From positions 121,228 through 185,227 of the forward strand of contig OZ246416.1 of the NCBI GenBank assembly GCA_965231095.1: a stretch of 64,000 bases of DNA, given 5' to 3'. This document shows, piece by piece, positions 6,572 to 64,000 of this stretch. A program made the position numbers and the translations under genes. The notes beneath the pieces were generated by a model. The model saw only the letters and a program-made list of their open reading frames with translations. It searched no databases and had not been told where the DNA came from. This DNA comes from an uncultured Gammaproteobacteria bacterium. GTDB lineage: Bacteria; Patescibacteriota; Patescibacteriia; XYB2-FULL-38-15. Position 1 is the first letter of the stretch. The number at the start of each line of letters is the position of its first letter.

Positions 6572-8029
6572 ATGGCACTTAGAGACTTTGGAACAGACGA
6601 AGCATTGGAAAAATATGAAAAAGAAAAAGGGGCAGCCGAGAAATCGGGCGAAGGTTGGGCAGCGGACAGAACGGAATTTGAAGCGGTCCAAAAAGAAAAA
6701 AAATTAAGAAAGCCCGGAGCGGTATCCAGATTTTTTAATCAGTTTGGGATTGGAAAATATTGGGAGAGAATGAATGATTATTTTGAGCAAGAAGAAAAAA
6801 TGGAAAAATCGGCGGCAGAAAAAGCGGCGGTCAAGGAAACGGTCGGCGATGTGAAAACCGCGGCCGGAGAAAAAGTTCAGGAAGTGAAGGGAGTCGGAGC
6901 GGAGATGCCGGTAAAAATTGAGGCGGCGGCGGCGCGAGCCGGAGCAGAGGCCCCGGAAGCGGCGCCGGTTGTTGCGGAAGCCAAAGTTGAGGAAGCGGCG
7001 ATTGAAGAGGAGGCAGAAGCAGCAAAAGCAGATTTAATAAAAGAGTTGCCACCGGTTGAGGAATTTGAAGAGATTGCGCGAGGGCATGAAGCTATGGCAA
7101 AAAAGGAGAAAGAAGAAGCGGAAGATGTAGAAATTGTTGAGAAAGAATCAATGGAAGATGAAGTAAGAAAAAAATACAAAGATACGCCGGTAAATGAGAT
7201 TGATGCGAGAATTAAATCTTTAAATTTTTCGATAGGCAAAGAAAGAGATTATGACGCGCGAGAATTATTAGAAGCCGAACGCGATATTCTGGCAAAAGTG
7301 AAAAAAGAAAAAATGCCGGCAAAAGCTCGGGAGAAAAAAATAGAGGTTAAATTGCCCGCCTGGGATGAAGAAGAAAATTTAGAAAATTTGCCGCCGGTTG
7401 AAGAATTTGAAGCCGTGGCAAAAGAACATGAAGAGCAGGCGGTTCCGTCTCCGGAAAAAGTTAAAGCAGCTGAGGTTTTGGAAGAAGAAGTGGAGGAACC
7501 AAAAGCGGAATTGCCATCGACTGAGGAATTTGAAGAAATTGCCAGAGCCCACGAGACGAATAAGGAAATGGCCAAGGCAAAAATTGAAGCGGTCCCATTA
7601 GATAAGAAAAAACAAAAAGAGGAGTTGGAAGACATTTTAATTGATTTTGGCTTTAGACGCGGCGACAAAGTTCCGGTGATAGACGAGTCCGGCAAAGTTG
7701 ATCCGAGCTGGGAGATAATAGGTATTGATAAAGACAAAGGAACGGCTTTTGTCACCAAAAAAGGTAAAGACAAGGAGCCAATGCTCAAAACCATAGATTT
7801 GGAAGAGCTGAAGCAATGGAAAAGAGAAGAAGAATTTTTTGGAAAAGGTAAAAAGGAAAGCAGGAAAAGAATGTGGCGCGGAGTTAAGAGTTTGGCCGGG
7901 GCAAGGGGAGAATACGCGGCGCAAAGGAAAAAGAAAGCGGAAAAAGCGTTTAAAATTTCCGAGCCGGAGGTTAAGCCGGAGATTAAGAAAAAACCCAAAC
8001 CGAAAAGGATTAAATTAAAAGTCGCGTAA
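6572..8029 (+). CDS. Acidic low-complexity protein with internal LPPVEEFEEIARxHE repeats
   Basis: 485 aa, E/K/A-rich. Three copies of the motif (E/N)LP(P/S)(V/T)EEFE(E/A)(I/V)A(R/K)xHE at about 7039, 7381 and 7517. Likely a disordered/coiled scaffold. Confidence 0.65.
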   Translation: MALRDFGTDEALEKYEKEKGAAEKSGEGWAADRTEFEAVQKEKKLRKPGAVSRFFNQFGIGKYWERMNDYFEQEEKMEKSAAEKAAVKETVGDVKTAAGEKVQEVKGVGAEMPVKIEAAAARAGAEAPEAAPVVAEAKVEEAAIEEEAEAAKADLIKELPPVEEFEEIARGHEAMAKKEKEEAEDVEIVEKESMEDEVRKKYKDTPVNEIDARIKSLNFSIGKERDYDARELLEAERDILAKVKKEKMPAKAREKKIEVKLPAWDEEENLENLPPVEEFEAVAKEHEEQAVPSPEKVKAAEVLEEEVEEPKAELPSTEEFEEIARAHETNKEMAKAKIEAVPLDKKKQKEELEDILIDFGFRRGDKVPVIDESGKVDPSWEIIGIDKDKGTAFVTKKGKDKEPMLKTIDLEELKQWKREEEFFGKGKKESRKRMWRGVKSLAGARGEYAAQRKKKAEKAFKISEPEVKPEIKKKPKPKRIKLKVA

Positions 8030-19218: not shown

Positions 19219-19377
19219 TTTTCACCCATGTTGTAGAATAGATAAATTACCAAAGACAGCAGGCGGTCGAGAAATTTGGCCTTAATTTCCTGCCGAGGTA
19301 AAACCGTGATTTTTTCGGTTTTTCTATCGTGTTCTGTGGTAATTCCACAGTTTTTTATTTATATAATTTAAAACAAT
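19219..19377 (+). promoter_or_regulatory. rplJ promoter plus L10-leader-type attenuator
   Basis: TTGACA-17-TAGAAT promoter (about 19220-19248), then a roughly 120-nt leader ending in the hairpin ctgtgg-taatt-ccacag followed by TTTTTT immediately upstream of rplJ. This is the expected position of the L10(L12)4 autoregulatory leader. Confidence 0.55.
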
Positions 19378-51371: not shown

Positions 51372-54083
51372 ATGTCATTGCTCGAAAAGATCCTTGGTGA
51401 TCCAAATAAAAAAACAATAGAAAAAATAATGCCGATTGTCGGGCAAATAAACGAACTCGAAGGAAAATTCGAGTCGTTTTCTTTTGATGAATTAAAGGGG
51501 ATGACGGCAAGTTTTAAAGAACGCTTGGCAAAAGGTGAGGCTTTGGAAGATATTTTGCCCGAGGCATTTGCCGTAGTACGCGAGACGGCAAAGCGCGTTT
51601 TGGGCCAGCGGCATTTTGACGCGCAGTTAATCGGCGGCGTTATTTTGCATCGCGGTCAGATCGCGGAAATGAAAACCGGTGAAGGAAAAACTTTGACCGC
51701 GACACTGGCCGTGTATTTGAATGCGCTCGCGGGCGGCGGAGTTCATGTTGTCACCGTTAATGATTATTTGGCGAAAAGAGATGCGACTTGGATGGGAAAA
51801 ATTTATCACGCATTAGGAATGTCGGTTGGTTGTATTGGGCACGACGCGGCGTTTTTGTATGATCCGGAATATAAGAATGAGGCGGCGGCGGGAGATGGCA
51901 GCCAAACGGCCAGTTTCAAAGTTGCGGAAGAATTTTTGCGACCGGTAGCGCGAAAAGAATCTTACGCCGCGGATATTCTTTATGGCACAAATAACGAATT
52001 TGGTTTTGATTATTTGCGCGACAACATGGTGACGAGTTTGGAAAATATGGCGCAGCGCCAGTTGAATTTCGCGATTGTTGATGAAGTTGACAGCATTTTA
52101 ATTGATGAAGCGCGAACGCCTTTGATTATTTCCGCGCCAGCCGAGGAGTCGGGAGAACTTTACGCGAAATTTGCCGATCTCGTGCGGCGGCTAAAAGAAA
52201 ATGAAGATTATAATATTGATGAAAAAATGCGCGCGGCGACACTGACCGAAGCGGGTATCGCCAAAATGGAAAAATGGTTGGGGGTGGGAAATATTTATAC
52301 CTCGGGCGGAATTACCATGGTTCATCATATTGAGCAAGCGTTGCGCGCCGAGACTTTATTTAAACGCGACCGGGATTATGTTGTCCGAGAGGGAGAGGTG
52401 ATAATTGTTGATGAATTTACCGGACGGTTGATGATTGGCCGGCGGTACAGCGAAGGCTTGCATCAAGCGATTGAAGCGAAAGAAGGCGTGCGCGTTCGCG
52501 AAGAATCAAAAACTTTGGCCACCGTCACTTTTCAAAATTTATTTCGGCTTTATAAAAAACTTGCCGGCATGACCGGTACCGCCCTAACCGAAGCGGAAGA
52601 ATTTTCCAAAATTTATAATTTGGAAGTTGTTTCCATTCCGACCAACAAACCAATGGTCCGCGCTGATTTGGCTGATAGAATTTATCGGACGGAAATGGGA
52701 AAATTTGCGGCGGTGGTCCGCGAAATTAAAGAACGCCATGAAAAAGGTCAGCCAGTTTTGGTGGGCACAATTTCCATTGAGAAAAATGAAATTTTAAGCC
52801 AGATGCTCGAGCGCGAAGGAATTACGCACCAAATTTTGAACGCAAAAAATCACGAAAAAGAAGCGGAAATTATTGCTCAAGCCGGACGAGCAGGCGCGGT
52901 GACCGTCGCGACCAATATGGCCGGCCGCGGCGTTGATATTATTTTAGGAGGAAACCCGGCTAATCCAGAAGAAGCAAAAAAAGTTCGGGAATTTGGTGGT
53001 TTGCATATTCTCGGCACTGAACGTCACGAATCTCGCAGAATTGATAATCAGTTGCGCGGTCGTGCCGGACGCCAGGGCGATCCTGGTTCATCGCAATTTT
53101 ATCTTTCGCTTGAAGATAATTTGATGAGAATTTTTGCCGGCGACCGATTAAAAGGTTTGATGACGCGGCTCAATATGCCGGAAGATATGCCGATTGAAAA
53201 TAAAATGGTTTCTCGCTCGCTTGAATCGGCACAGCGCCGCGTGGAAGGTCATAACTTTGATATCAGAAAACATTTGCTTGAGTACGACGATGTCATGAAT
53301 AAACATCGTGAAGTGATTTATAAAAAACGCCGCGACATTTTGGCGGCGGAAAATAGCAAAGATAAAGTTTTGGAAATGGTGGAGGATGAAATTGAACAAG
53401 TTGTTTTATTTCATACCGCTTCAGAACAGGAAGGGGATTGGAATTTGGAAGAAATTTATGAAGTGGTTGGGACAATTTTCCCGGTGCCGCTGGAAGTGCG
53501 CATAAAAATGGAAGATCTTAAACGCTGGGCTGGTGATAAGGCACACGACGCGGCGGTTCGCACGCGCATCATCGAATATTTGATGGAACTCGCGCGTGGA
53601 GCTTATGAAAATTTAGAAAAGAGAATTTCCGAGCAGGCGGAAAAAATAAAACAGGATGGAGAAAAAATAATGCGCCAAATCGAGCAGGCGATGATGCTTC
53701 GGGCGATTGATTCACTTTGGGTTGATCACTTAAGCGCGGTTGATTATTTGCGCACGGGAATTGGTCTTCGCGGTTATGGCCAGCATGATCCGCTTGTTGA
53801 ATACAAAAAAGAAACATACAGAATGTTTCAGGAATTGATGCATTTTATAAATCGGGAAGTTGTTTATAATATTTATAAAGTCGGCTTGGAAACAAAAACC
53901 GCGCCGTCACTTTTAGATCGGCAAGGAGTAAAAATGTCCGCTCCGGCAAAAGAAGGAGATAGCCGAAACGCGCCGGCTGATATCAAAGCCAAACCTCGTA
54001 CGGCCGAAGGAGAAAAAATCGGCCGCAATGATCCATGTCCTTGCGGGAGTGGGAAAAAGTATAAAAAGTGTCATGGGAAGTAG
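51372..54083 (+). CDS. secA: Protein translocase subunit SecA
   Basis: DEAD-motor Walker [10 protein letters not shown], preprotein cross-linking domain, C-terminal zinc-binding [14 protein letters not shown]; 903 aa. Confidence 0.95.
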
Positions 54084-54132
54084 GAGCTGACAAATAGAGC
54101 CGTTTCCGTCCGCAAACTGCGGATAAAGGGAA

Positions 54133-54163
54133 AAACCCCGTGCGATGAGCACGGGGTTTTTCT
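54133..54163 (+). terminator. Rho-independent terminator after secA
   Basis: aaaaccccgtgc-gatga-gcacggggttttt. Confidence 0.75.
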
Positions 54164-54265
54164 ATGCCAAAATCCCGATCTCGAAAAAATAAATACTGCT
54201 CGTCGAAGGTCGAGGTACGCGGCACCAGAGTCCGCAAGCTTACAAAAGTTGACACAACACCGAGT

Positions 54266-54526
54266 ATGAAAAACATCACACAAGTGAAGAAAAACATACG
54301 CGAAGAAGTTCGCGGAAAGGTCATGCGGGAGCGTATCCGGGCCGTCGCCGAAAGTTTGGCCAAAGACCTCGAAGACAATATCGCCGATGAGGTCGGCAAC
54401 CTAACTGGAAAGCTGACGACGGACTTCCTGGATGGAGGATCAGAAATCGAATCGGAGCTCATGGGCTACGCCTTCGATCAGATCAACGACGCCCTGCTCG
54501 GTGAGATCAAGAAAGAACTCAAATGA
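54266..54526 (+). CDS. Phage-island hypothetical protein
   Basis: Start uncertain (track ORF begins at 54164); helical, acidic C-terminus. Confidence 0.4.
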   Translation: MKNITQVKKNIREEVRGKVMRERIRAVAESLAKDLEDNIADEVGNLTGKLTTDFLDGGSEIESELMGYAFDQINDALLGEIKKELK

Positions 54527-54623
54527 CCACGGGTCGATTGATAGCTCAATCGAAGTCTAGTCAGAGACTTGGATGCGACAACAAACAGAGCTACATCAAC
54601 GACCCCGACGAGCAACCAAACGT

Positions 54624-54815
54624 ATGAACGCAATCACTTACGAGCAAGCGAAGAAAACCTTCACCATAGCATCCGAAGCCATCGCCTTCCTGGTGACTCT
54701 CGACATGCTAATCCTCTTCGCATCGCTCGCTCAAATCATGGTGGAGGGCCAGACCGGACACTGGAGTCCTTTCTGGCGGGCACAAGCGGATCTGGTGTTG
54801 AGACTCTTCACATGA
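54624..54815 (+). CDS. Small hydrophobic protein (63 aa)
   Basis: TM helix IAFLVTLDMLILFASLAQIMV; stop overlaps the next start in ATGA. Confidence 0.45.
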   Translation: MNAITYEQAKKTFTIASEAIAFLVTLDMLILFASLAQIMVEGQTGHWSPFWRAQADLVLRLFT

Positions 54816-55135
54816 GAGATCTCAAGCCGACCCGCGCGGTCACCTACCGCAGATACGGAACTCCAGCAGTGATCCTTGAAGGGAAATGGCTTACGGATCG
54901 CTACAAATTGAAGATAGGTGACCGCATTGATGTGGAGTTCCTGGATAAAGAAATACGGCTCCGGAAGTCGAACCGGGCCGCTCAGAAAAAGAAAATCTCC
55001 CCGAAGGGAGATGATCAGCAAATTAATTATATCAATCCACCTTCGGGCAAGTCAAATAACAATTATGAACAACCAAGCACAACCAACAGCAACGAGGGTG
55101 CGACCGAGAGAAACGGAGAAGGAAACGACAGATAG
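54812..55135 (+). CDS. SymE-like / AbrB-fold (SpoVT-AbrB) protein
   Basis: RAVTYRRYGTPAVILEGKWLTDRYKLKIGDRIDVEFLDKEIRL parallels E. coli SymE (Y…YP…IP.ItLkGqWLe.aGF..G..VdV); low-complexity N/S/G tail. Confidence 0.45.
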   Translation: MRDLKPTRAVTYRRYGTPAVILEGKWLTDRYKLKIGDRIDVEFLDKEIRLRKSNRAAQKKKISPKGDDQQINYINPPSGKSNNNYEQPSTTNSNEGATERNGEGNDR

Positions 55136-56321
55136 CTTCTTCGCGCCGATTGGCAACACCAAGCCCTACTTCAAAGCGGCCTTCCAAGGCTTCGCGGGTA
55201 GCGGCAAAACATTCACCGCAGCGCAGGTCGCGGTCGGACTGCACAAGCGAATAGGTTCGAAAAAACCGATCGTAATCTTCGACACCGAACAAGCATCAAA
55301 ATTCCTCAAGCCGCTTTTCGCGGAAGCCGGAATCGAAGTGCTCGTCCGCGAATCGAAGTCACTGGCCGACCTACGGCAAACGATGGAAAAGATGCGCTCC
55401 GGAATATCGGACATCCTTCTCATCGATTCCATCTCGCACGTATGGGAGGGGTTCCTCCAATCCTACGCAGAAAAAGTTCACCGGACACGCCTGGAATTCC
55501 AGGACTGGGGAATCATCAAGCCGACATGGAAGCGGGAATTCTCCGACCCATTCGTGAGCGACGGGTACCACGCGATCTTCACCGGCCGCGCTGGGTACGA
55601 GTACGACAACGAAAAGAATGCCGACACCGGCAAACGCGAAATCTTCAAGTCCGGAATCAAGATGAAGGTCGAAGGCGAAACCGCCTACGAGCCGGACATG
55701 CTCGTCCTCATGGAGCGCTTCGAAGAAGTGCTCGGAGACGACAAGAAGGTCTGGCGCGAAGCCACGATCATCAAAGACCGAAGCACCCTGCTCGACGGCC
55801 GGACTTATAAAAACCCGACCTATGAGAACTTCGCGCCGATAGTAGAAGCCCTGCTCACCGATCCAATTCCGAGAGACACGGTAGTCATGCCTGAATCGGA
55901 CACCGGCTTACTCTTCCGAACCGAGGAGGAAAAAGCCGAATGGCGCAGAGAGCGCGACAAATGGATAGAGGAACTAGATGGTCTCCTTATCCGCATCGCA
56001 CCCGGCGCGGTCGGCCGAGACAAGCAGCTAAAGCTTGACCTACTGGATCGAGTATTCGGAACGACCTCAATGACAGCAATCGGCGAGCTCCGGCCTGAAC
56101 GCCTGGCCGACGGCTATAAGAAGCTGGGCCTTGAAGCCGTGTCGATGGGCATCGCAGAAATTGTAGAACTCCCGGATGGGCGCAAACGCCTAGTCTCAAA
56201 GCTGCCTCCTAATGGCAACGGGAATGGAAACGGAAATGGGAATGGGAATGGGCACTCTCACACCGAAGAAAAGTCGAAGCCCGCTCCGGTCCCAGCAAAG
56301 AAAGGAACTAAGAAAAAGTAA
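55065..56321 (+). CDS. Phage P-loop ATPase (AAA_24 / Sak4-like) with C-terminal extension and (GN)7 repeat
   Basis: Walker A AFQGFAGSGKTFTAAQ, Walker B-like ILLIDSISHVW; the C-terminal about 170 aa are unassigned; ends with PPNGNGNGNGNGNGNGH. Confidence 0.55.
   Translation: MNNQAQPTATRVRPRETEKETTDSFFAPIGNTKPYFKAAFQGFAGSGKTFTAAQVAVGLHKRIGSKKPIVIFDTEQASKFLKPLFAEAGIEVLVRESKSLADLRQTMEKMRSGISDILLIDSISHVWEGFLQSYAEKVHRTRLEFQDWGIIKPTWKREFSDPFVSDGYHAIFTGRAGYEYDNEKNADTGKREIFKSGIKMKVEGETAYEPDMLVLMERFEEVLGDDKKVWREATIIKDRSTLLDGRTYKNPTYENFAPIVEALLTDPIPRDTVVMPESDTGLLFRTEEEKAEWRRERDKWIEELDGLLIRIAPGAVGRDKQLKLDLLDRVFGTTSMTAIGELRPERLADGYKKLGLEAVSMGIAEIVELPDGRKRLVSKLPPNGNGNGNGNGNGNGHSHTEEKSKPAPVPAKKGTKKK
56207..56250 (+). 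repeat. In-frame hexanucleotide tandem repeat (GGNAAY)x7 encoding (Gly-Asn)7
   Basis: aatggcaacgggaatggaaacggaaatgggaatgggaatggg. Confidence 0.8.
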
Positions 56322-56404
56322 CCACCGGCGTTAGCTTCCGACTCTGCCCTCATCGCGGAAGCGTGAGGTCAGAGATCGGAAGCCGACAAAGGATCAAACA
56401 TCTT

Positions 56405-56779
56405 ATGGGAATAGACATCTACGCGCGCTGGAAAAACCAGACGCCAAAGCAAAAGAAAAAGCAGATCACTGGCTTCTCAGTGGAGCACGGCAATGTCGGG
56501 TACTTGCGTGAAGCGTACCGGGGAGAGCACTTCGCAACGCGATACTTGTGCCGCGAAGCCTTCGGGAAAAACAACGAAGCAAAAATCCCGGCCAAGCTTC
56601 TACGCGAACGATTGCCAAGAACTCTCGAAGTGGTCGAACAACGAGAGCGAACGATTTATAAGCAAACGGATCAAAAGAAAATCGACAAAGTGAAGCAAAG
56701 CTTCGTTGACTTCGTGGATCTCTGCGAACGGAAAGAGAAAGAAACCGGAGAGCCATGCACGATAATCGCCAACTACTGA
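56405..56779 (+). CDS. Phage-island hypothetical protein
   Basis: 125 aa from the internal ATG; no recognisable motif. Confidence 0.45.
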   Translation: MGIDIYARWKNQTPKQKKKQITGFSVEHGNVGYLREAYRGEHFATRYLCREAFGKNNEAKIPAKLLRERLPRTLEVVEQRERTIYKQTDQKKIDKVKQSFVDFVDLCERKEKETGEPCTIIANY

Positions 56780-56781
56780 CC

Positions 56782-57057
56782 ATGAAATACGCATTCAACC
56801 TCGAATGGAACGAGCTTCCAGAAGAACTAAGGGAAGCAAAAATCCGGGAGTACATCCTCGCCGGAGACAAGCGTGACTGCGAAGAATGCGATGGCGTGGG
56901 AGAGATTCCTACGGCAATGGAACGAGGCGACATAAAAGCCAGCAAGCCATGCAGCAATTGCAGTGGAACCGGCCGAGTCAATCCTGACCCGGACGACCTG
57001 CACCAGCAAGAGGAAGCAGAAGAAGACATCCGCATTCACTTCCCGATTTACTTCTAA
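56782..57057 (+). CDS. Small DnaJ-type zinc-finger protein (two CxxCxGxG motifs)
   Basis: CEECDGVG and CSNCSGTG; acidic C-terminal tail. Confidence 0.5.
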   Translation: MKYAFNLEWNELPEELREAKIREYILAGDKRDCEECDGVGEIPTAMERGDIKASKPCSNCSGTGRVNPDPDDLHQQEEAEEDIRIHFPIYF

Positions 57058-57136
57058 CGGCTCTCGATTCTGTCCTGACCGCGAGAGCGTCAGGCCAGAA
57101 ATCGGGGAGCTGTTTCCCTTTCGTCCAACAAAAAAC

Positions 57137-58087
57137 ATGGAAAACGAAACAACCTCAATAATTCCAAACTCGACTCAAATCCCGCACCTCATTATCCGGG
57201 AGTGGATGCCACTCCTGAGCGATGTAGATCTGAGGATTCTTCTTGTCGTTGCGGACCAGACGTTGGGATGGATTGAAGATCCGGAAACAAAACGCCGCAA
57301 AGAGAAAGATTGGATTAGTCAGGGTCAGCTGATGAAGAAAATAAACCGCAGCGATCGCGCCATTCAAAACTCACTCAAGAGATTGGTAGACGAACTGAGA
57401 ATTATCCAAGCCCACGACGAAGCGGGTGTACTCCTAGACTCGCCACAAAAGCGCATGAAGTGCGGAGGAAAAATCTTCTACCGCTTGAGTCTTAAACGGC
57501 CACAACAACCCACCCCCGAAACAAGTTCGGGGGCAGGAAAAACCTCAAACTTTTCACCTCCCCCGAAAAATCTTCGTGCGAAGAATTTTCGGGCTACAAA
57601 AGAAACCGGTTTTACAAAAGATAAGTCCTTCGGACAAGCAAGCTTGATTCAAGAATTTAAAAAGGATGTGGATAAGCCTGTGGATAAACCAATCCTGCCA
57701 ACGCGCTACTTCTTCGGGAAATTCTCTCAACTCACCTGGGGCATTCGGCATACTCGGCCGATCTTCGTGAAGTTCAAAGACGGCAATCTGCTCAAGCATG
57801 CGCTGCGCCATCTCACTGAATTTCAACTTGAGATGGAGCTCGTGTGGTTTTTGCAAAACAAGCGAGAGATGAAACCGACAATCGGTGCGGCTTTATGCAA
57901 AGAAGTCATCGACGATTTTATTCAGGCAAGCCTAAAAGAGTACGGATTCTACAACACGCTAGAGCGAACCGCGCTGCAGTACAGCCGACGCGAACCGGAA
58001 GAAGTCCGTGGCGAAGCTGCCGCAATGGTCGAAGCGCTGAAGAAGCTGAAGGACTCATTTTCAATGAGGCAAACAAACAGCATATGA
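57137..58087 (+). CDS. Putative phage replication-initiation / DNA-binding protein (winged HTH)
   Basis: LRILLVVADQTLGW…ISQGQLMKKINRSDRAIQNSLKRLVDE resembles DnaD/RepA/phage-O type wHTH domains; ends in ATGA overlap with the MTase start. Confidence 0.4.
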   Translation: MENETTSIIPNSTQIPHLIIREWMPLLSDVDLRILLVVADQTLGWIEDPETKRRKEKDWISQGQLMKKINRSDRAIQNSLKRLVDELRIIQAHDEAGVLLDSPQKRMKCGGKIFYRLSLKRPQQPTPETSSGAGKTSNFSPPPKNLRAKNFRATKETGFTKDKSFGQASLIQEFKKDVDKPVDKPILPTRYFFGKFSQLTWGIRHTRPIFVKFKDGNLLKHALRHLTEFQLEMELVWFLQNKREMKPTIGAALCKEVIDDFIQASLKEYGFYNTLERTALQYSRREPEEVRGEAAAMVEALKKLKDSFSMRQTNSI

Positions 58088-59319
58088 GACACATCGATTT
58101 ATTTTCAGGCATCGGCGGATTCGCTTTGGCGATCGAAAAAGTGTGGCCGAATTCCGATCACATCTTTTGCGATAACGATTCCTACTGTCAAAAATTACTA
58201 AAACTAAGATACCCAAACTCAAAAATCTATGGCGACATCAAAGAGATCAAATCTATTACCGACTCCGACTGGCTCGGACTACAAAAGCCGGGGAAGAAAC
58301 AGCAAGCAGTTAGGCGTCGACAATTATTTAAAGTCGATATCCTCACGGGGGGATTCCCATGCCAGCCATTCTCTCAGGCCGGAAAAAGACGAGGGACGAG
58401 CGATGACCGCTACCTCTGGCCGGAAATGCTTCGAATCATTCGACTCACGAATCCGCGATGGGTCATCGCTGAAAACGTGCGTGGGTTACTTACTATGCAA
58501 AACGGGTTGGTATTCGAACAAGTGTGCCTTGACTTGGAAGCCTCCGGCTACGAAGTCCAACCGCTCATTATTCCAGCTGTCGCCGTCAACGCTCCGCATC
58601 GAAGAGACAGGATCTGGTTTATTGCTCACGCCATCAGCGATCCAGCCGATCGAAAGAAAAAAAGCGGAAAGCTACCTGAAGCGCCAAATAAGCAGAAACA
58701 AAACGGGTCGCAATACAGTCCCGCCCGGCAATCTTTACGAGCAACTCTTGGCTGGGGGAGCAACCGACCTGAGGAAGACATCATTGTGGCCGGTGCTTTT
58801 GGGCACGCCGAAAGCACAAGACAGCCGTGCGGCAATGAGAGATCGGGGAAAACACAATATGGGGGAACAGGTTCAAGAAGCCATCAACGCTCTGCTTCCC
58901 ACACCGAGAGTAAGCGAGGTCGAGGGGGCGCCGGTAAAGAACGCGGAGTTAAAGAATGGGCGATGGAGCAGGATGAATCAAAAGGGCGTGAGATTCGGAG
59001 TAAAGGTGAAAGACGTACTGGCCGTATTGCCTACGCCACGAGCGGGGAATCCGGGAAGCAGGCCAAACAAAAAAGGCGGAAAGATTTTGAACGAGGAAGT
59101 TGGGAAAGGAATTGGCTTGAAGTTGCAGCCGAACTTTGTGGAATGGATGATGGGCTACCCGCAAAACTGGACGAATTTGAATTATCAAAATCAAGACATC
59201 GGATAGAGAGACTTAAGGCTCTAGGGAATGCGATCGTGCCGCAAGTCGCGACAAAGATCATGCAGGCAATCAAAAAGACGGAAGAAAACTTTGGCCTCAC
59301 TCGAAGCATTCGGAATTGA
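58084..59319 (+). pseudogene. DNA (cytosine-5)-methyltransferase disrupted by two frameshifts (or phase-variable)
   Basis: Frame A has motif I DLFSGIGGF, IV GGFPCQPFSQAG, VI ENV and VIII RRDRIWF. After the A7 tract at about 58657-58663 the protein-like sequence continues only in frame B (+1): PTP-type TRD motifs LLTPSA, LWP…TPKAQDS, LPTPRVSE, and motif IX FVEWMMGYPQNWT. Motif X (RLKALGNAIVPQV) is back in frame A after about 59180. Both frames are open for about 980 nt. Confidence 0.7.
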
Positions 59320-59415
59320 ATGTCCGTGTTTTTCGAGTGGGGCTAACCCACTGTTCGCCTGAGGTCGACAGGCGGTCAAGAAAAGATAAAGAAATTATAA
59401 AGAAAAGTTAAAGCT

Positions 59416-59697
59416 ATGGAACAAGATCAGAATTTACTAGAAACGATTCTGCGGGCAATAGTCAACCACCCTGAACAGGTGGAAGTGACAAGGCACGTAG
59501 ACGAGATGGGCGTGCTCCTCTCGGCGAAGCTTGGCGAGGGCGATGCGGGAATCGTGATCGGCAAAGAGGGACGCGCAATTAAAGCGATCCGCTCAGTCAT
59601 GAACCTCGTCGGCCGCAGAAGCAAAGCTCGTGTCAGTGTTCGGCTCAATGTCCCGGATCTGCCCCGCAATGCGGGATCGGAGTCGGTCTCGGCCTAA
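59416..59697 (+). CDS. KH-domain RNA-binding protein (KhpA/YlqC-like)
   Basis: GxxG loop context VIGKEGRAIKAIR typical of type-II KH (KH_4) proteins; 93 aa. Confidence 0.6.
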   Translation: MEQDQNLLETILRAIVNHPEQVEVTRHVDEMGVLLSAKLGEGDAGIVIGKEGRAIKAIRSVMNLVGRRSKARVSVRLNVPDLPRNAGSESVSA

Positions 59698-59763
59698 CAG
59701 CACATCGGCGACCCCGCCGCTACGAACGGGACAAAGACACAAAACCCGTTAACTCAAACAGCT

Positions 59764-60069
59764 ATGAACCGTACCCAAAAAGGAAAAATCATTGAACAAA
59801 AAGCCCAGGCCCTTCTCGTTCAGGAAGGCTACTGGATCGAGAAGGCTCGGCGCGCAAAGTTCCAACAGCAAGACCTATTCGGGTGCTGGGACTTGATGGC
59901 TGTCGGCAAAAAAGAAATTCGCTTTATTCAGGTTAGCTCGGAGCGTTTCAGTTCCAGGTCGAGGGCAGACCAAGAGCGAATGCTTGCATTCCCAAAGCCA
60001 GTAAACACCACAAAGGAATATTGGCGATGGAATGAAAAGACGGACAAATTCGAAATTATAACGATATGA
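59764..60069 (+). CDS. Putative PD-(D/E)XK-fold nuclease (Hjc/VRR-NUC-like)
   Basis: EGYWIEKARR…QDLFGCWDLMAV…IRFIQVS spacing resembles E…D…(E/Q)xK resolvase cores, but the final Lys is not conserved. Confidence 0.3.
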   Translation: MNRTQKGKIIEQKAQALLVQEGYWIEKARRAKFQQQDLFGCWDLMAVGKKEIRFIQVSSERFSSRSRADQERMLAFPKPVNTTKEYWRWNEKTDKFEIITI

Positions 60070-60362
60070 AAACAAGACTAGAAACACTCGAGTCAATTCA
60101 CGACTCATTGCTAGAAGAAAAAGTGCGGCTGGAGATTGCGATACGCAACCTTGAAGACCGCGGCGACGATGACGTGGTGATCCCGCGCCTGACTCCATTC
60201 AACACGGAGGGCCAAAAGACCAAGAAAGAATTGGTGGTGGAATATCGGGAACGGATCGAAAAAGTCGAACACGCCATCTTAACAACTGAAAAATTAATTG
60301 AAGAAGAACATGACCAGACTCGACAACCCAAAAAAGAACCCGCTGGCACGAAGAAAGAATAG
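60066..60362 (+). CDS. Small coiled-coil phage protein
   Basis: 98 aa, heptad-rich, ATGA overlap with the upstream gene. Confidence 0.45.
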   Translation: MKTRLETLESIHDSLLEEKVRLEIAIRNLEDRGDDDVVIPRLTPFNTEGQKTKKELVVEYRERIEKVEHAILTTEKLIEEEHDQTRQPKKEPAGTKKE

Positions 60363-60524
60363 GCCACGGCTTATAGGCGGTGCATACATTCCGGCCGACC
60401 TGCTGGCCGAAGCTCAAAAGCGGCGTATTGAAATGGTCGAGCGCGAGATGACAACGCAGGCATACCTTGAACTCCCGCTTCGAAGAAGGGTCCGGATTCG
60501 TATCAAACTATTCTTCATAAACCT

Positions 60525-61796
60525 ATGGAAAAAAATACGAAGACAATAAAAATCACAGACCTCAAGCATCCGGCCTACAACCCGCGTGAGATAAAGCGCG
60601 AAGACATCGATGCCCTGAAGCGGTCAATTGAACGATTCGGATTGCGAGGACTGATTACGGTTAACACCAGCAAGGGACGCGACGGTTTCATTATCGGCGG
60701 CAACATGACCGTCATGGCCCTCAAAGAGCTGGGATGGGAAACAATACCGAAAGAGAATGTGGACTTGGTAGACATGCCGGAGAAGGAAGAAAAAGCACTG
60801 AGTCTTGCCTTAAACAAGATTGCTCAACGGCGCGATTGGAATGACGAGAGGCTGGCCGAACTCATGGTCGAGATCAATCACTCCGACTTTGACCTGACCC
60901 TCACCGGCTTCAATGAAGTGGAGATAAGCAATCTCCTCGACAGCCAAATGCTCGAAGAGCCGGATGAAGAAGATAAAACCGCCGAAGAAGAATACGAGGA
61001 AATAAAAAAACCTGTGTCGAAATACGGTGAAGTTTATAAGCTTGGCCGACACCGGCTTATGTGCGGAGACGCAACCAAGATCGAAGACATCAAGAAATTG
61101 CTCGGCACAACCAAGGTGGATATGGTTTTTACCGATCCGCCTTACAACGTGGCTCACGTCAGTCACGAAAAGCGCGGAAAGTTTCCAACCGAGCAAGGAA
61201 AGATTCTCGGCGATCAGCAGAGCCAAGAAGACTTCGAAGCCTTCAGCGAAAAAGTGTTCGCCAACTACCATGAAATTCTGAAGCCAGGCGCAACGATGTA
61301 CGTCTGCACGGGCTATACCAGCTATCCGCTGTGGTACTACGAAATGCTGAACGCCGGGTTTGAATTTTCCTCGACAATCGTATGGGTTAAACCGTCCTTC
61401 GCTATTGGCTGGGGAGACTACAAAAAACAATACGAACAGGTCATGAAAGCCAAGCGAAGCAAAGGCAAGACCAAAGCTCAGCCACTTATGTATGGGTGGA
61501 AGAAGGGAGAGAGGCACTTCTTCTACGGCGACAACAACGAAAGCGACGTGTGGGACATGCCTCGCAAAGCGATTACCAAGATGGCTCATCCGACCGAGAA
61601 ACCGGAGTGGCTCATTATGCGCGCCATAAAGAACTCAAGCCGAGTCGGAAACGTCGTGGTCGACTTCTTCGGTGGATCAGGAAGCACACTATTCGCCGCA
61701 AACAAACTGGAACGCACCTGCTATCTGCTTGAGCTCGACCCGCGTTGGTGCGATGTGATTCGCAATCGCTGGGAGAAGGTCAAAGTGAAAAGTTAA
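60525..61796 (+). CDS. ParB-like nuclease domain fused to N6-adenine/N4-cytosine DNA methyltransferase (beta class)
   Basis: N-terminal ParB/Srx fold (GLRGLITVN…GGNMTVMALKELG); MTase motif IV FTDPPYN; C-terminal motif I VVDFFGGSGST. Order IV then I implies a beta-class amino-MTase. Confidence 0.8.
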   Translation: MEKNTKTIKITDLKHPAYNPREIKREDIDALKRSIERFGLRGLITVNTSKGRDGFIIGGNMTVMALKELGWETIPKENVDLVDMPEKEEKALSLALNKIAQRRDWNDERLAELMVEINHSDFDLTLTGFNEVEISNLLDSQMLEEPDEEDKTAEEEYEEIKKPVSKYGEVYKLGRHRLMCGDATKIEDIKKLLGTTKVDMVFTDPPYNVAHVSHEKRGKFPTEQGKILGDQQSQEDFEAFSEKVFANYHEILKPGATMYVCTGYTSYPLWYYEMLNAGFEFSSTIVWVKPSFAIGWGDYKKQYEQVMKAKRSKGKTKAQPLMYGWKKGERHFFYGDNNESDVWDMPRKAITKMAHPTEKPEWLIMRAIKNSSRVGNVVVDFFGGSGSTLFAANKLERTCYLLELDPRWCDVIRNRWEKVKVKS

Positions 61797-61820
61797 AGAA
61801 AAGATAAATAGAAAAGCAGT

Positions 61821-62384
61821 ATGACAAAGTCCACACTCACGACCACAAAGATGCCGAAAGAGACAGAGCAGCAATATACTGCGTGGCTTTTATATTGCGA
61901 AGTTGGAAGTATCGGCAAGCTGATGCGCGTGTGGGAAGGGGTTGGACAAAACTTGGATGAAACTTGGATGATTTTCTCCCAAAAGCTAGGCAAGATGCCG
62001 AGTCATACCACCATAGGAAATTGGTCAAAACAATATCGCTGGGTAGATCGCAAAGACCTTAAACTCATCGAAGACCTTGAAGGTATTCGAAAAAAGACGC
62101 AAGAGATTAAGCAAAGAAAGGTTGGAGTTATTGCGGAAATATTCTGGGACAAGATGCAAGCTCTACGCAAGCAAATTAAGAAAGGAGAAGGAGCTACGAC
62201 CGACGAGATCAAGAAATGGTGGGAAATGTTCAGGACTGAAATGGGAGAGTCGCTTGGCAAGCACGAACTTAGCATCAACGAAGACGAGCAAAAGCCTCCG
62301 ACTCCGGAGCAGGAGGAACTGGGCCAAGCAATAGACGAAACCATCAAAGCTTTTTATGGACGAAAAGGAAAAACAAAAAAGTAG
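61821..62384 (+). CDS. Putative terminase small subunit
   Basis: 187-aa helical/basic protein immediately upstream of and overlapping terL. Call is positional, with no diagnostic motif. Confidence 0.4.
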   Translation: MTKSTLTTTKMPKETEQQYTAWLLYCEVGSIGKLMRVWEGVGQNLDETWMIFSQKLGKMPSHTTIGNWSKQYRWVDRKDLKLIEDLEGIRKKTQEIKQRKVGVIAEIFWDKMQALRKQIKKGEGATTDEIKKWWEMFRTEMGESLGKHELSINEDEQKPPTPEQEELGQAIDETIKAFYGRKGKTKK

Positions 62385-63897
62385 CATCCTGTATTGGATC
62401 AAGCAGAATGGAATAAAAAGCGAAAGCGGTGATCCGATCGAGTTCGCCGACCACCGCTTCATGTTGGATATTTATTCCGACCGCACGCCGATACAGGTGA
62501 TACGCAAGGGATCGCAGATCGGAGCGAGCACGATGGAAATCCTGCGATCTGTTCATGCCGCACGCTTTTGGGGCATCAACCAAATTTATACGCTCCCAAC
62601 CGTGGATGACGTGGCCGAGTTCGTAAAAAGCAAAGTGAACCGTATCGTGAAAGTGAATCCCTGCATGCTCGAAGGCGTAAGCGGAAAAGACGTGGACTCG
62701 GTGGAACAAAAACAGATAGGCAAGTCCTTCCTGTTCTTCAAAGGAACCTACACGGAAAAGGAGGCAATTATGCTTACCTCCGATCGCAACATCCACGATG
62801 AGCTCGACAAGTCCAAGCCGGAAGTTATCCGAGACTTCACTTCTCGCATGGGCTTCTCAAAAATAAGAAGCCAACATTATTTCTCGACCCCAACCATTCC
62901 GGACATGGGCGTCGACAAACTATTTGGGCAATCGGATCAGAAACACTGGCGATTCAATTGCCCTCGTTGCAACTACGAGCAGCACATGGATTGGGAAAAG
63001 AACGTTGACCGTGAACGCAGAATATACGTCTGCCAAAAATGCCACAGTGAAATTACATCGCGGCATGTAAACGACACGGGCTGGTGGGAGGCCAGGTATC
63101 CAGGAGAGCCAATAAGCGGCTACTGGATAAGCCAAATGATGTGTCCGTGGCGCACCGCATCCGACCTACTCACCGAAGAAGCCAATGCCGAAGACCAGCA
63201 ATACTTCTACAACTTCGTGCTGGGCCTGCCTTATATCGCATCGGATCAGAAAATTCCGCAGAGCCTATTCCTTCGCAACACAACGAGTGAAGAAGTGGAA
63301 ACATCGGGTTGGAATGTAATGGGAGCGGATACCGGAGACGAAAACCACATAGTCATCGGCAACGCTAAAGGAATATTCTGGATCGGAAAAATAAAAGACC
63401 GGCCGAACAAGACACGCTGGGAATACATGGCCGAGCTGATTCAATTCTACGATGTGCGGGTTTGCGTTATTGACGCAATGCCATGGACGGAAGAAGCATT
63501 GCGCCTGGCCCGCAAATTCCCGTATCGCGTCTACGTGAACTTCTACAAAGACGATCCGAAAATGTTAGAGGTTGTCCGCTGGAACGATGAGAAAGAAGAA
63601 GATGAAAAGCCGTTTGAAGAAGAAGTAAAAGTTCTCACCTCACGAAATAGGATTATCGACGACACGATATCGTCTCTCCGCCGAGGAGAAATAAAATTTG
63701 CCATGAAGCCGGATGACCCAACATTCAAGATGCTTATTGAACACGCGCAAACAATGTATGCACGAACAGTCACAAATCAGTATGGTCAAGAAAAACGTGA
63801 ATGGGAGTCGACGACTGGCGTCGATCACGCCTGGCATGCACTTCTATACTGGCATGTCGCTTTCAAAAAGAGACTCAAGTATGAACCAAACAACTGA
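62356..63897 (+). CDS. Phage terminase large subunit
   Basis: N-terminal ATPase with P-loop-like VIRKGSQIGASTMEIL; central CxxC…CxxC zinc ribbon (CPRCNYEQHMDW…CQKCHSEI); C-terminal nuclease-like region with acidic residues; 513 aa. Confidence 0.65.
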   Translation: MDEKEKQKSSILYWIKQNGIKSESGDPIEFADHRFMLDIYSDRTPIQVIRKGSQIGASTMEILRSVHAARFWGINQIYTLPTVDDVAEFVKSKVNRIVKVNPCMLEGVSGKDVDSVEQKQIGKSFLFFKGTYTEKEAIMLTSDRNIHDELDKSKPEVIRDFTSRMGFSKIRSQHYFSTPTIPDMGVDKLFGQSDQKHWRFNCPRCNYEQHMDWEKNVDRERRIYVCQKCHSEITSRHVNDTGWWEARYPGEPISGYWISQMMCPWRTASDLLTEEANAEDQQYFYNFVLGLPYIASDQKIPQSLFLRNTTSEEVETSGWNVMGADTGDENHIVIGNAKGIFWIGKIKDRPNKTRWEYMAELIQFYDVRVCVIDAMPWTEEALRLARKFPYRVYVNFYKDDPKMLEVVRWNDEKEEDEKPFEEEVKVLTSRNRIIDDTISSLRRGEIKFAMKPDDPTFKMLIEHAQTMYARTVTNQYGQEKREWESTTGVDHAWHALLYWHVAFKKRLKYEPNN

Positions 63898-64000
63898 TAA
63901 AAAAATAGCGAATCCAATCACGGAAGAACAAGCTCTTCTGCTTGTGGAAATCGCCAAAGACTTGGCGGCCGTCGAGGAGGAAGGATTCGGTCGTATTGTG
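63881..64000 (+). CDS. Phage structural-module ORF, 3'-truncated by window end (possibly portal)
   Basis: ATG overlapping the terL stop; 40 codons open to the window edge (MNQTTDKKIANPITEEQALLLVEIAKDLAAVEEEGFGRIV). Confidence 0.35.
   Translation, partial: MNQTTDKKIANPITEEQALLLVEIAKDLAAVEEEGFGRIV

What the first reader, a model, noticed from the sequence alone, without database searches (positions are those of the whole stretch)
54165..64000. GC-rich phage-derived island inserted immediately 3' of secA
GC jumps from about 38% to about 50-58% directly after the secA terminator. Genes are co-oriented with ATGA overlaps. They include a SymE/AbrB-like protein, an AAA-ATPase, a wHTH replication protein, two DNA methyltransferases, a KH protein, a nuclease-like protein, and a small plus large terminase pair at the window edge. 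No integrase or attachment site is visible in the window, and the island is not next to a tRNA gene. Prophages are rare in CPR-like genomes, so a complete or remnant one with methyltransferases is of interest.
Basis: partly seen in the sequence, partly recalled or inferred. Interest (0 to 1): 0.55.

Follow-up and report, generated by a model that had tools for sequence, protein, structure and literature searches.

The report
Prophage left arm inside secA's end
The GC-rich stretch after secA is the left arm of a tailed-phage genome integrated into the last codons of secA in a small-genome (Patescibacteria/CPR) bacterium; it is a real but fairly ordinary prophage, notable for its defence-gene cargo and an unusual two-frame methylase gene.

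Summary
Host GC is 43.5%, not 38%. The island averages 50%, and AT skew jumps from 0 to 0.27 at the secA end.

Confirmed genes are an AAA_24 ATPase, a RepO-like initiator, a C5 methyltransferase, a ParB-N6/N4 methyltransferase, a KH protein, TerS and a full-length TerL. The "SymE/AbrB" and "nuclease" calls could not be verified.

An identical contig extends the window by 10 kb. It shows no capsid genes, only secreted proteins, an HTH_17 protein, a second MltG/YceG, a two-component system, Fic and DUF5655.

A sister contig is 93-96% identical across the left arm. I walked it end to end, and it continues with portal, SU10-type capsid and adaptor, tail fibre, amidases, a tyrosine integrase and attR. 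The attR core, AAAAAGTGTCATGG, repeats window 54063-54076, the last codons of secA. That prophage is about 50 kb.

At least three further lineages carry the element at the same secA site.

The finding is therefore the left arm of a very probably complete temperate SU10-like phage with a defence-gene hotspot between terminase and portal. Completeness in this exact genome is inferred, not shown.

Side finding: the C5 methylase is a nested two-frame gene like M.EcoHK31I.

The parts
54063..54076 (+). attL core AAAAAGTGTCATGG (secA codons K-K-C-H-G): the crossover region of site-specific integration
   Evidence: The same 14-mer occurs at attR of the sister prophage (L129 12802-12815), where it is followed by the displaced original secA tail GAAAATAA. 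L009's contig has the equivalent 18-bp core at both ends. Identity between window and L002 jumps from about 82% upstream of the core to 100% downstream.
54077..54165 (+). Phage-supplied replacement end of secA (GGAAGTAG stop), a conserved arm (GGAGCTGACAAA..GCCGTTTCCGTCCG) and an intrinsic terminator hairpin at 54132-54165
   Evidence: The arm is conserved in five lineages, and the hairpin stem shows compensatory changes. Sequence read.
54266..54526 (+). 86-aa conserved hypothetical protein (the ORF may start at 54164)
   Evidence: Called in L001. Homologues in L002 (95%) and L009 (56%). No family match.
54624..54815 (+). 63-aa conserved hypothetical protein
   Evidence: Called in L001. Homologues in L002, L009 and L005.
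54812..55135 (+).
   Evidence: No Pfam, PHROG or PDB match. Conserved only in L002. Not called by the collection's gene finder.
55065..56321 (+). AAA_24-type ATPase (418 aa), replication/recombination module
   Evidence: PF13479 at 3.2e-6, phrog_1366 at 7.7e-39, weak Sak4-like match phrog_124. L009 homologue at 79%.
56405..56779 (+). 124-aa conserved hypothetical protein
   Evidence: Called. L009 homologue at 73%.
56755..57057 (+). 100-aa CxxCxGxG zinc-finger protein
   Evidence: PF00684 DnaJ_CXXCXGXG at 5.2e-6 (below the curated cutoff) and phrog_6060 at 9e-6.
57137..58087 (+). Replication-initiator O-like winged-helix protein (316 aa)
   Evidence: phrog_678 at 1.1e-8 and phrog_18020 at 5.9e-7. 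PF04492 at 5e-4, below the cutoff.
58084..59319 (+). C5 cytosine methyltransferase, frame A ('alpha'): motifs I-VIII, an approx. 170-aa low-complexity linker, then motif X
   Evidence: PF00145 at 4e-47 over profile positions 1-324, and phrog_363 at 6e-65. Sequence.
58229..59206 (+). Nested +1-frame ORF (325 aa, 'beta'): LPTPxxxD repeats plus an FVEWMMGYPQNWT motif that resembles motif IX
   Evidence: phrog_1008 'DNA methyltransferase' at 5.6e-25. 293 homologues, nearly all without PF00145. The same nested layout occurs in Bacteroides phage BKO1-TP3 and Paenibacillus phage Tadhana.
59416..59697 (+). KhpA-type KH-domain protein (93 aa)
   Evidence: PF13083 at 1.6e-17.
59764..60069 (+).
   Evidence: No family or PDB match. 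Conserved in L009 (70%) and in Woesebacteria elements (42%).
60066..60362 (+). 98-aa conserved hypothetical protein
   Evidence: Homologues in most related elements.
60310..60549 (+). 79-aa conserved hypothetical protein
   Evidence: Called. Homologues in L008 and L009 at 57%.
60525..61796 (+). ParB-N domain fused to an N6/N4 DNA methyltransferase (423 aa)
   Evidence: PF01555 at 1.1e-33, PF02195 at 4e-7, phrog_498 at 3.6e-123.
61821..62384 (+). Small terminase subunit (187 aa)
   Evidence: phrog_6299 at 7.9e-10. Syntenic homologue upstream of TerL in every related locus.
62356..63897 (+). Large terminase subunit, GpA type (513 aa, full length)
   Evidence: PF05876 at 2.8e-18 and phrog_675 at 1.8e-101. 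100% coverage against phage TerL. 469 homologues.
63881..64000 (+). Start of a 75-aa gene that runs off the window. The prophage continues beyond it, with cargo seen in L001.
   Evidence: L001 11293-11520. L001 is 100% identical to window 52589-64000.

Best explanation
Window 54063-64000 is the left arm of a temperate tailed phage integrated in a Patescibacteria (Parcubacteria-type) chromosome. The arm carries the replication module, DNA methylases and terminase. The phage is podovirus-like, with an SU10-type capsid and adaptor.

Inferred mechanism, from the att anatomy in relatives: a phage tyrosine integrase recombines attP with a 14-18-bp core inside the last codons of secA. This region encodes the conserved GKKYKKCHG zinc-finger tail. 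The phage arm supplies a replacement C-terminus, a stop codon and a terminator, so secA stays intact. The original secA tail is displaced to attR.

Gene order in complete relatives is: attL, replication (AAA_24 ATPase, RepO-like), methylases, TerS, TerL, small, secreted and HTH_17 proteins with YceG/MltG, variable cargo, portal, scaffold, SU10 capsid, adaptor, tail fibre, large ejection-type protein, holin-like protein and amidase, integrase, small HTH, attR.

The slot between terminase and portal is a cargo hotspot of 5-20 kb with host-like GC. It holds restriction-modification systems, Fic (SoFic), DUF5655 (PDC-S18), a reverse transcriptase, AbiE and, in this genome, a two-component system.

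Shown: gene identities in the window, identity of L001 with the window, full architecture with integrase and att repeats in two related prophages, and the same secA site in five assemblies.

Inferred: that this genome's copy also carries the structural arm and integrase beyond +10 kb, and that the element is still inducible.
For: - Composition break at the secA end.
- Phage gene content in the window.
- L001 is 100% identical to the window and extends it by 10 kb.
- The sister contig is 93-96% identical over the left arm. It carries portal, SU10_MCP (3e-46), SU10_adaptor, tail fibre, LPD38 protein, two Amidase_2 proteins and a Phage_integrase (7e-27).
- The attL and attR cores, and the displaced secA tails, are present in two independent prophages of about 49.8 and 39.2 kb.
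- The secA fragment or att core sits at the left end in L002, L009, L231 and L230.
- Identity between window and L002 jumps from about 82% to 100% at the core.
- L148 is 89-91% identical to L001 and shares DUF5655. It reaches the region just upstream of the portal about 10.6 kb after DUF5655.
- The closest GTDB relative has hpf-pdaD-secA followed by secDF. None of 80 secA loci carries island genes.
- The phage core is 49-50% GC, while the cargo is 44-45% and the host 39-44%.
- All window genes are intact and conserved against L009, whose TerL is only 56% identical.
Against: - The structural arm, integrase and attR were not seen in this genome.
- No att repeat occurs within the 21 kb available.
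- The 10 kb after TerL are cargo of host-like composition. A deletion of the right arm in this strain cannot be excluded.
- There is no read-level evidence of excision or circularisation.
- The att cores are short (14-18 bp).
Confidence: 0.8

Rival explanations
1. Defective prophage remnant. This strain keeps only the left arm (replication, methylases, terminase) plus cargo. The structural arm and integrase have been deleted, so the element is immobile.
For: No structural gene lies in the 10 kb after TerL. No att repeat occurs within 21 kb. The cargo has host-like GC. The right arm could not be retrieved for this genome.
Against: Every left-arm gene is intact. Three related lineages with the same cargo layout (L002, L148, L009) all continue into a structural arm. 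The identical Logan contig runs 62 kb downstream of secA, which is long enough for the whole element.
Confidence: 0.13
2. Phage satellite (PICI-like island). It would carry its own replication module and terminase and hijack capsids of a related helper phage.
For: The compact 10-kb module with replication genes plus TerS and TerL, and no capsid genes nearby, looks superficially satellite-like. TerL is 83% identical to that of L004, whose portal and capsid follow about 5 kb downstream of TerL.
Against: There is no integrase or att at about 10-15 kb. In relatives the same left arm is contiguous with a full structural arm inside a single attL-attR pair. YceG and the cargo lie inside that pair.
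Confidence: 0.04
3. Assembly chimera: a free phage genome wrongly joined to a host contig at secA.
For: There is an abrupt composition change. Several related contigs begin at or near the att core.
Against: The secA-phage junction recurs in independent assemblies from different samples (window source, Logan SRR8863431, IMG 3300025012, IMG 3300035208, Logan SRR10064596). The sister contig also has host genes beyond attR. The displaced secA tails at attR are what true integration predicts.
Confidence: 0.02

Closest known systems
Temperate tailed phages that integrate into the 3' end of a host gene with a tyrosine integrase, in the general manner of lambdoid and P4/P22-type prophages at tRNA or protein-gene 3' ends
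   Same: A tyrosine integrase lies next to one att site. Short direct repeats flank the element. The phage arm rebuilds the 3' end of the target gene. The genome is modular: replication, packaging, head, tail, lysis, integration.
   Different: The target is the zinc-finger tail of secA, not a tRNA gene. The host is a CPR/Patescibacteria bacterium. No close relative exists among cultured phages; TerL is about 25% identical to the best matches.
Escherichia phage SU10 (Kuravirus-type podovirus) structural module
   Same: The capsid protein matches PF17236 SU10_MCP (3e-46), the adaptor matches PF24175 SU10_adaptor (3e-9), and the portal is P22-like (weak). All were found in the sister contig.
   Different: This element is temperate, with an integrase. 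Its terminase is GpA type. Virion morphology is unknown. These matches come from the sister contig, not from the window.
Published CPR prophages and phages, for example the 27-kb Roizmanbacteria prophage (Chen et al. 2019, PMC6509639)
   Same: An integrated tailed-phage genome in a CPR chromosome, with integrase, terminase, capsid and lysin.
   Different: That prophage is smaller and carries a tail tape-measure and major tail protein, whereas this one has an SU10-type capsid and adaptor. The present family is 39-50 kb, sits at secA (or next to a truncated comM-type Mg-chelatase gene in Daviesbacteria and Woesebacteria) and carries a large defence cargo.
Defence-gene hotspots in prophages and satellites such as P2/P4 (from my own knowledge, not tested here)
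   Same: A fixed slot between conserved core genes holds different defence systems in different copies. Here the slot lies between terminase/YceG and portal. It holds type II and III restriction-modification systems, SoFic, PDC-S18, an RT, AbiEii and HerA-like genes.
   Different: The position in the genome, the host phylum and the presence of a two-component system and an MltG paralogue differ. Defence activity is untested.
M.EcoHK31I heterodimeric C5 methyltransferase (beta chain encoded in another frame inside the alpha gene; PMC2836561)
   Same: A long ORF in a different reading frame lies wholly inside the C5-methylase gene. The outer frame carries motifs I-VIII and X. The inner frame carries a motif IX-like segment.
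   Different: The inner ORF here is much longer (325 aa) and seems also to carry the target-recognition region, since the outer frame is low-complexity there. In M.EcoHK31I the TRD is in alpha. Neither product has been shown to be made.

Membership tests
Integrated tailed-phage genome (prophage, Caudoviricetes) | Large and small terminase subunits | tested here: met
   TerL matches PF05876 and phrog_675 at 1.8e-101 and is full length. TerS matches phrog_6299 at 7.9e-10.
Integrated tailed-phage genome (prophage, Caudoviricetes) | Portal, major capsid and tail genes in the same element | tested here: inconclusive
   Absent from the window and from the 10 kb beyond it. Present in the sister contig and in L009's contig between the same att sites. 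Not retrievable for this genome.
Integrated tailed-phage genome (prophage, Caudoviricetes) | Integrase and flanking att direct repeats | tested here: inconclusive
   The attL core is present in the window at 54063-54076. The integrase (PF00589, 7e-27) and the attR core were seen only in relatives.
Integrated tailed-phage genome (prophage, Caudoviricetes) | Absence from related genomes (empty site) | tested here: met
   None of the 80 best secA loci from GTDB species representatives carries island genes. In the closest one (79% SecA identity) secDF follows secA.
Phage satellite (PICI-like) | A small element (about 10-15 kb) bounded by its own att sites and lacking most structural genes | tested here: not met
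   In relatives the single attL-attR pair encloses 39-50 kb, including a full structural arm. No att repeat occurs within 21 kb in this genome.
Degraded prophage remnant | Truncated or frameshifted core genes | tested here: not met
   All 15 called left-arm genes are intact and have full-length homologues in L009 or L002. The right arm was not examined in this genome.
SU10-like podovirus structural lineage | SU10-type major capsid and adaptor proteins | tested here: met
   PF17236 at 3e-46 and PF24175 at 3e-9, in the sister contig only.
SU10-like podovirus structural lineage | Short-tailed (C3) virion morphology | not testable with these tools
   No virion data are available.
M.EcoHK31I-type nested heterodimeric C5 methyltransferase | Second ORF wholly inside the methylase gene in another frame | tested here: met
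   58229-59206 (+1 frame) lies inside 58084-59319. Both frames are open. The layout is conserved in L009, Bacteroides phage BKO1-TP3 and Paenibacillus phage Tadhana.
M.EcoHK31I-type nested heterodimeric C5 methyltransferase | Outer chain has motifs I-VIII and X; inner chain supplies motif IX | tested here: inconclusive
   PF00145 aligns end to end on frame A across a large non-matching insert. Frame B carries FVEWMMGYPQNWT, which I read as motif IX-like by eye. It has no Pfam or PDB profile match, and the AF2 model has low confidence (pLDDT 59).
M.EcoHK31I-type nested heterodimeric C5 methyltransferase | Both polypeptides are made and both are required for methylation | not testable with these tools
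   This needs expression and methylation assays.

The most novel reading that the evidence does not exclude
Two readings remain open.

1. The prophage family may be a vehicle that moves defence islands among Patescibacteria. The islands include restriction-modification systems, Fic, DUF5655, an RT, AbiE and even a two-component system and an MltG paralogue. The same core occurs at secA in Parcubacteria-type hosts and next to a truncated comM-type Mg-chelatase gene in Daviesbacteria and Woesebacteria. Portal proteins at least 90% identical turn up in bins named Nomurabacteria and Doudnabacteria.

2. Its C5 methylase may be a conserved two-frame gene. The whole small (target-recognition plus motif IX) domain would be translated from the +1 frame inside a disordered linker of the catalytic chain. 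The roughly 230-325-codon overlap is conserved from CPR phages to Paenibacillus and Bacteroides phages.
Probability: 0.45. Interest if true: 0.6.

Novelty: new member of a known kind. Interest (0 to 1): 0.4.

Why it matters
CPR/Patescibacteria have tiny genomes and few described prophages. A well-delimited temperate phage family with a defined integration site gives a concrete handle on lysogeny and gene flow in these uncultured episymbionts. The defined features are the secA zinc-finger tail as attB, an identified integrase and a recognisable cargo slot. The cargo slot shows that much of the defence repertoire next to secA in these genomes is phage-borne. The nested methylase is a clean, testable example of a long conserved overlapping gene. 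None of this overturns current ideas; prophages with defence cargo and 3'-end integration are standard biology.

Tried and rejected
- I searched for att-like direct repeats inside the 21 kb of L001 and between the left junction and L016. Only chance-level matches appeared.
- I tried to extend this genome beyond +10 kb. SecA and PdaD of the window are not on record by exact sequence. DUF5655 found nothing in viral contigs. The metagenome scan gave an 89-91% relative (L148), not the same strain.
- The 'SymE/AbrB' and 'nuclease' annotations have no Pfam, PHROG or PDB support. I dropped them as names and kept them as ORFs.
- The satellite reading was considered because the 10 kb after TerL lack capsid genes. 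I rejected it once the sister contig showed one att pair around the whole 50 kb.
- I first took YceG for the host right flank. I rejected this because YceG follows TerL in nearly all relatives, and the window has a separate mltG paralogue at 4814-5845 with 28% identity.
- The AlphaFold model of the nested frame-B protein had pLDDT 59 and pTM 0.28. That is too poor for a fold search, so none was run. A profile search of PDB sequences found nothing.
- The codon-position test of dual coding between window and L009 rested on only 30 substitutions. They fell 14, 3 and 13 on frame-A positions 1, 2 and 3. This is suggestive but not decisive.
Full report
**1. Observation**

Composition changes abruptly at the end of secA (secA is 51372-54083).
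- GC is 0.435 over window 1-54083 and 0.500 over 54165-64000.
- GC skew falls from 0.17 to 0.03 and AT skew rises from 0.01 to 0.27.
- Island 2-kb windows run 0.478-0.538, against a host mean of 0.434 with sd 0.029.

The shift is real, but the host is about 43-44% GC rather than 38%. All island genes are on the + strand. Two junctions are true ATGA overlaps, at 58084 and 60066, and others overlap by 25-53 nt. ARAGORN finds no tRNA in the whole 64 kb.

**2. Gene content in the window**

Pfam and PHROG searches confirm:
- an AAA_24 ATPase at 55065-56321 (phrog_1366, 7.7e-39);
- a CxxCxGxG zinc-finger protein at 56755-57057;
- a RepO-like initiator at 57137-58087 (phrog_678, 1e-8);
- a C5 methyltransferase at 58084-59319 (PF00145, 4e-47);
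- a KhpA-type KH protein at 59416-59697;
- a ParB-N6/N4 methyltransferase at 60525-61796 (phrog_498, 3.6e-123);
- TerS at 61821-62384 (phrog_6299);
- a full-length GpA-type TerL at 62356-63897 (phrog_675, 1.8e-101).

TerL aligns over 100% of its length with TerL of SPO1-like and Vibrio phages at about 25% identity.

The ORFs called SymE/AbrB-like (54812-55135) and nuclease-like (59764-60069) have no Pfam, PHROG or PDB sequence match. The first is conserved only in the near-identical sister contig.

**3. Beyond the window**

An exact look-up of TerL returned Logan contig SRR8863431_5267 (62,440 bp). Locus L001 from it is 100% identical to window 52589-64000 and adds 10 kb. After TerL come:
- a 75-aa gene;
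- three secreted or membrane proteins;
- an HTH_17 protein (3.7e-15);
- YceG/MltG (6e-67);
- a response regulator and a histidine kinase;
- a 455-aa protein;
- Fic and DUF5655.

There are no portal, capsid or tail genes.

**4. Relatives resolve it**

TerL has 469 homologues at E<=1e-10. Those that carry a source name are nearly all from Patescibacteria assemblies, and several sit on 0.2-1.1-Mb contigs.

The sister contig IMGVR_UViG_3300025012_001675 is 52,966 bp. Its TerL is 99% identical and its left arm is 93-96% identical in DNA. Its portal is recorded as KKS56514 from a 'Candidatus Nomurabacteria' bin. I walked it end to end through loci L002, L016, L021, L037 and L129.

After the same secreted-protein, YceG, two-component and Fic genes it carries, in order:
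- two Dcm methylases, Vsr, a 906-aa ATPase and a reverse transcriptase;
- a 641-aa portal (weak P22_portal match);
- a scaffold-like acidic protein;
- an SU10-type capsid (PF17236, 3e-46) and an SU10 adaptor;
- a virion protein with an Amidase_2 domain and a tail fibre;
- a 1265-aa LPD38 protein;
- a holin-like protein with a 191-aa amidase;
- a tyrosine integrase (in L009's copy: PF00589 at 7e-27, phrog_1 at 1.5e-36) and a small HTH protein.

Beyond these lie glyoxalase, dCMP deaminase and an M16 peptidase at 39% GC, which is host sequence.

Portal starts 20.6 kb after TerL in this contig. In L004, L012, L230 and L231 the gap is about 5-8 kb. L148 is 89-91% identical to L001 and shares DUF5655. 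It carries a type III restriction-modification system, a methylase, a HerA-like ATPase and a Cas4-like nuclease, and it reaches the region just upstream of the portal about 10.6 kb after DUF5655.

**5. Attachment sites**

The last codons of secA in the window, AAAAAGTGTCATGG at 54063-54076 (K-K-C-H-G), recur at L129 12802-12815, just past the integrase and HTH genes. There they are followed by GAAAATAA, the displaced original end of secA (…KKCHGK*). This overlaps the start codon of the glyoxalase gene.

L009's contig (39,370 bp; TerL 56% identical; left arm syntenic) has the equivalent 18-bp core GAAGAAATATAAGAAGTG at both ends. Its displaced tail reads …KKYKKCCGKQ*.

Prophage lengths are about 49.8 and 39.2 kb.

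An alignment of five left junctions (window, L002, L009, L231, L230) shows a conserved phage arm right after the core (GGAGCTGACAAA…GCCGTTTCCGTCCG). It also shows a terminator hairpin whose stem varies by compensatory changes. Identity between window and L002 jumps from about 82% upstream of the core to 100% downstream.

The element is therefore inserted inside the secA 3' end. The stop codon and the 'secA terminator' are phage DNA.

**6. Empty sites and host**

The 80 best secA loci among GTDB species representatives are Patescibacteria. The best is 79% identical, from a Falkowbacteria bin, followed by Uhrbacteria, Magasanikbacteria and others. None carries any island gene. The closest has hpf-pdaD-secA followed by secD-secF.

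Related elements in Daviesbacteria and Woesebacteria lie next to a truncated comM-type Mg-chelatase gene instead.

**7. Interpretation**

The finding is the left arm of a temperate SU10-like phage that uses the secA zinc-finger tail as attB. The core modules are 49-50% GC. The slot between terminase/YceG and portal has host-like GC (44-45%) and differs in every lineage. This fits a cargo hotspot loaded mainly with defence genes.

YceG follows TerL in nearly all relatives. The window has a separate mltG paralogue at 4814-5845 with 28% identity, so the downstream YceG is phage-borne.

Completeness in this exact genome is inferred from three related lineages and from the 62-kb length of the identical contig. 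I put it at about 0.8. The main rival is a right-arm deletion in this strain.

**8. Side finding: the C5 methylase gene is read in two frames**

Frame A (411 aa) has motifs I-VIII, then about 170 aa of K/R/G/S-rich sequence, then motif X. The +1 frame is open for 325 codons (58229-59206). It encodes LPTPxxxD repeats and FVEWMMGYPQNWT, and it matches phrog_1008 at 5.6e-25.

The same nested pair exists in Bacteroides phage BKO1-TP3 and in Paenibacillus phage Tadhana. In Tadhana both ORFs are annotated as cytosine methyltransferase. Of the best 120 of 293 frame-B homologues, only two carry PF00145.

The known precedent is M.EcoHK31I, whose beta chain lies in another frame inside the alpha gene (PMC2836561).

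The window and L009 copies are 97% identical in DNA, while the flanks are 65-73% identical. L002 has an N4/N6 methylase in the same slot, so the cassette is exchanged between lineages.

The structure prediction was too poor to use.

**9. Verdict**

It is a new member of a known kind, of moderate interest.

Noticed in passing
window 58084-59319 (frame A) and 58229-59206 (+1 frame): The C5 methyltransferase gene contains a 325-codon ORF in the +1 frame. Both frames match methyltransferase families, and both stay open in L009, Bacteroides phage BKO1-TP3 and Paenibacillus phage Tadhana. This resembles the nested alpha/beta gene of M.EcoHK31I, but the inner chain is longer and seems to include the target-recognition region.
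   Followed up: partly
window 58067-59356; L002 3872-5155; L009 3902-6005: The methylase slot between RepO and the KH gene is a swapped cassette. Window and L009 share the nested C5 methylase at 97% nt identity despite 65-73% identity in the flanks. The sister contig L002 has an SPPY-type N4/N6 methylase there instead.
   Followed up: partly
L001 11300-21309 (window-equivalent 63888-73897); L016 6104-21068; L148 10001-20569; L048 1-9500: The region between terminase/YceG and portal is a hypervariable cargo slot of 5-20 kb. It holds SoFic, DUF5655/PDC-S18, type II and type III restriction-modification systems, Vsr, a HerA-like ATPase, a Cas4-like nuclease, a UG17-like reverse transcriptase and AbiEii. 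It also holds a response regulator with a histidine kinase, and in one lineage a class-I tRNA-synthetase-family gene (PF00579) and a racemase.
   Followed up: partly
window 4814-5845 and L001 14411-15481: There are two YceG/MltG paralogues with 28% identity. One lies among host genes. The other lies inside the prophage, just downstream of TerL, and is conserved there in nearly all related elements. Its role (lysis, cell-wall remodelling or conversion) is unknown.
   Followed up: partly
L129 13209-13230 (sister contig, beyond attR): A second att-like 22-mer, AAAAGTGTCATGAGAAGTAGGA, matches 21/22 of window 54063-54084, including the phage-type arm. It lies after the 127-aa glyoxalase gene. This may be the scar of an earlier integration at the same site, which would make the glyoxalase gene a leftover of a previous element.
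   Followed up: no
window 54082-54098 and 54240-54262; L129 12365-12385 and 12598-12625: GTTGACA/CTGACA-type motifs recur close to both att arms. They could be promoter -35 boxes or integrase arm-type sites. No statistics were done.
   Followed up: no
L012 2742-3353; L014 1472-1975; L015 1316-1975: Related elements in Daviesbacteria and Woesebacteria genomes (TerL 65-68% identical) begin next to a truncated Mg-chelatase (comM-type) gene. This suggests a different integration target in Microgenomates.
   Followed up: no
P0273, P0337 (homologues of the frame-B protein): In two homologues, methylase motif I (FSGIGGF) is fused in frame directly to the frame-B-type region, with no catalytic motifs IV-VIII. 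They may be deletion or frameshift variants of the nested gene.
   Followed up: no
portal cluster of P0121: Portal proteins at least 90% identical occur in bins named Nomurabacteria, Doudnabacteria and even Anaerolineaceae. This points either to recent spread among CPR lineages or to mis-binning of phage contigs.
   Followed up: no
window 6572-8029: A 485-aa ORF extremely rich in E, K and A sits in a strongly purine-skewed stretch (GC skew 0.31, AT skew 0.30). It contains repeated 'LPPVEEFEEIARxHE' segments. Its function is unknown.
   Followed up: no
window 19232-19366: The ribosomal protein L10 leader (RF00557, 59 bits) is the only Rfam match in the window. No tRNA gene occurs in 64 kb.
   Followed up: no
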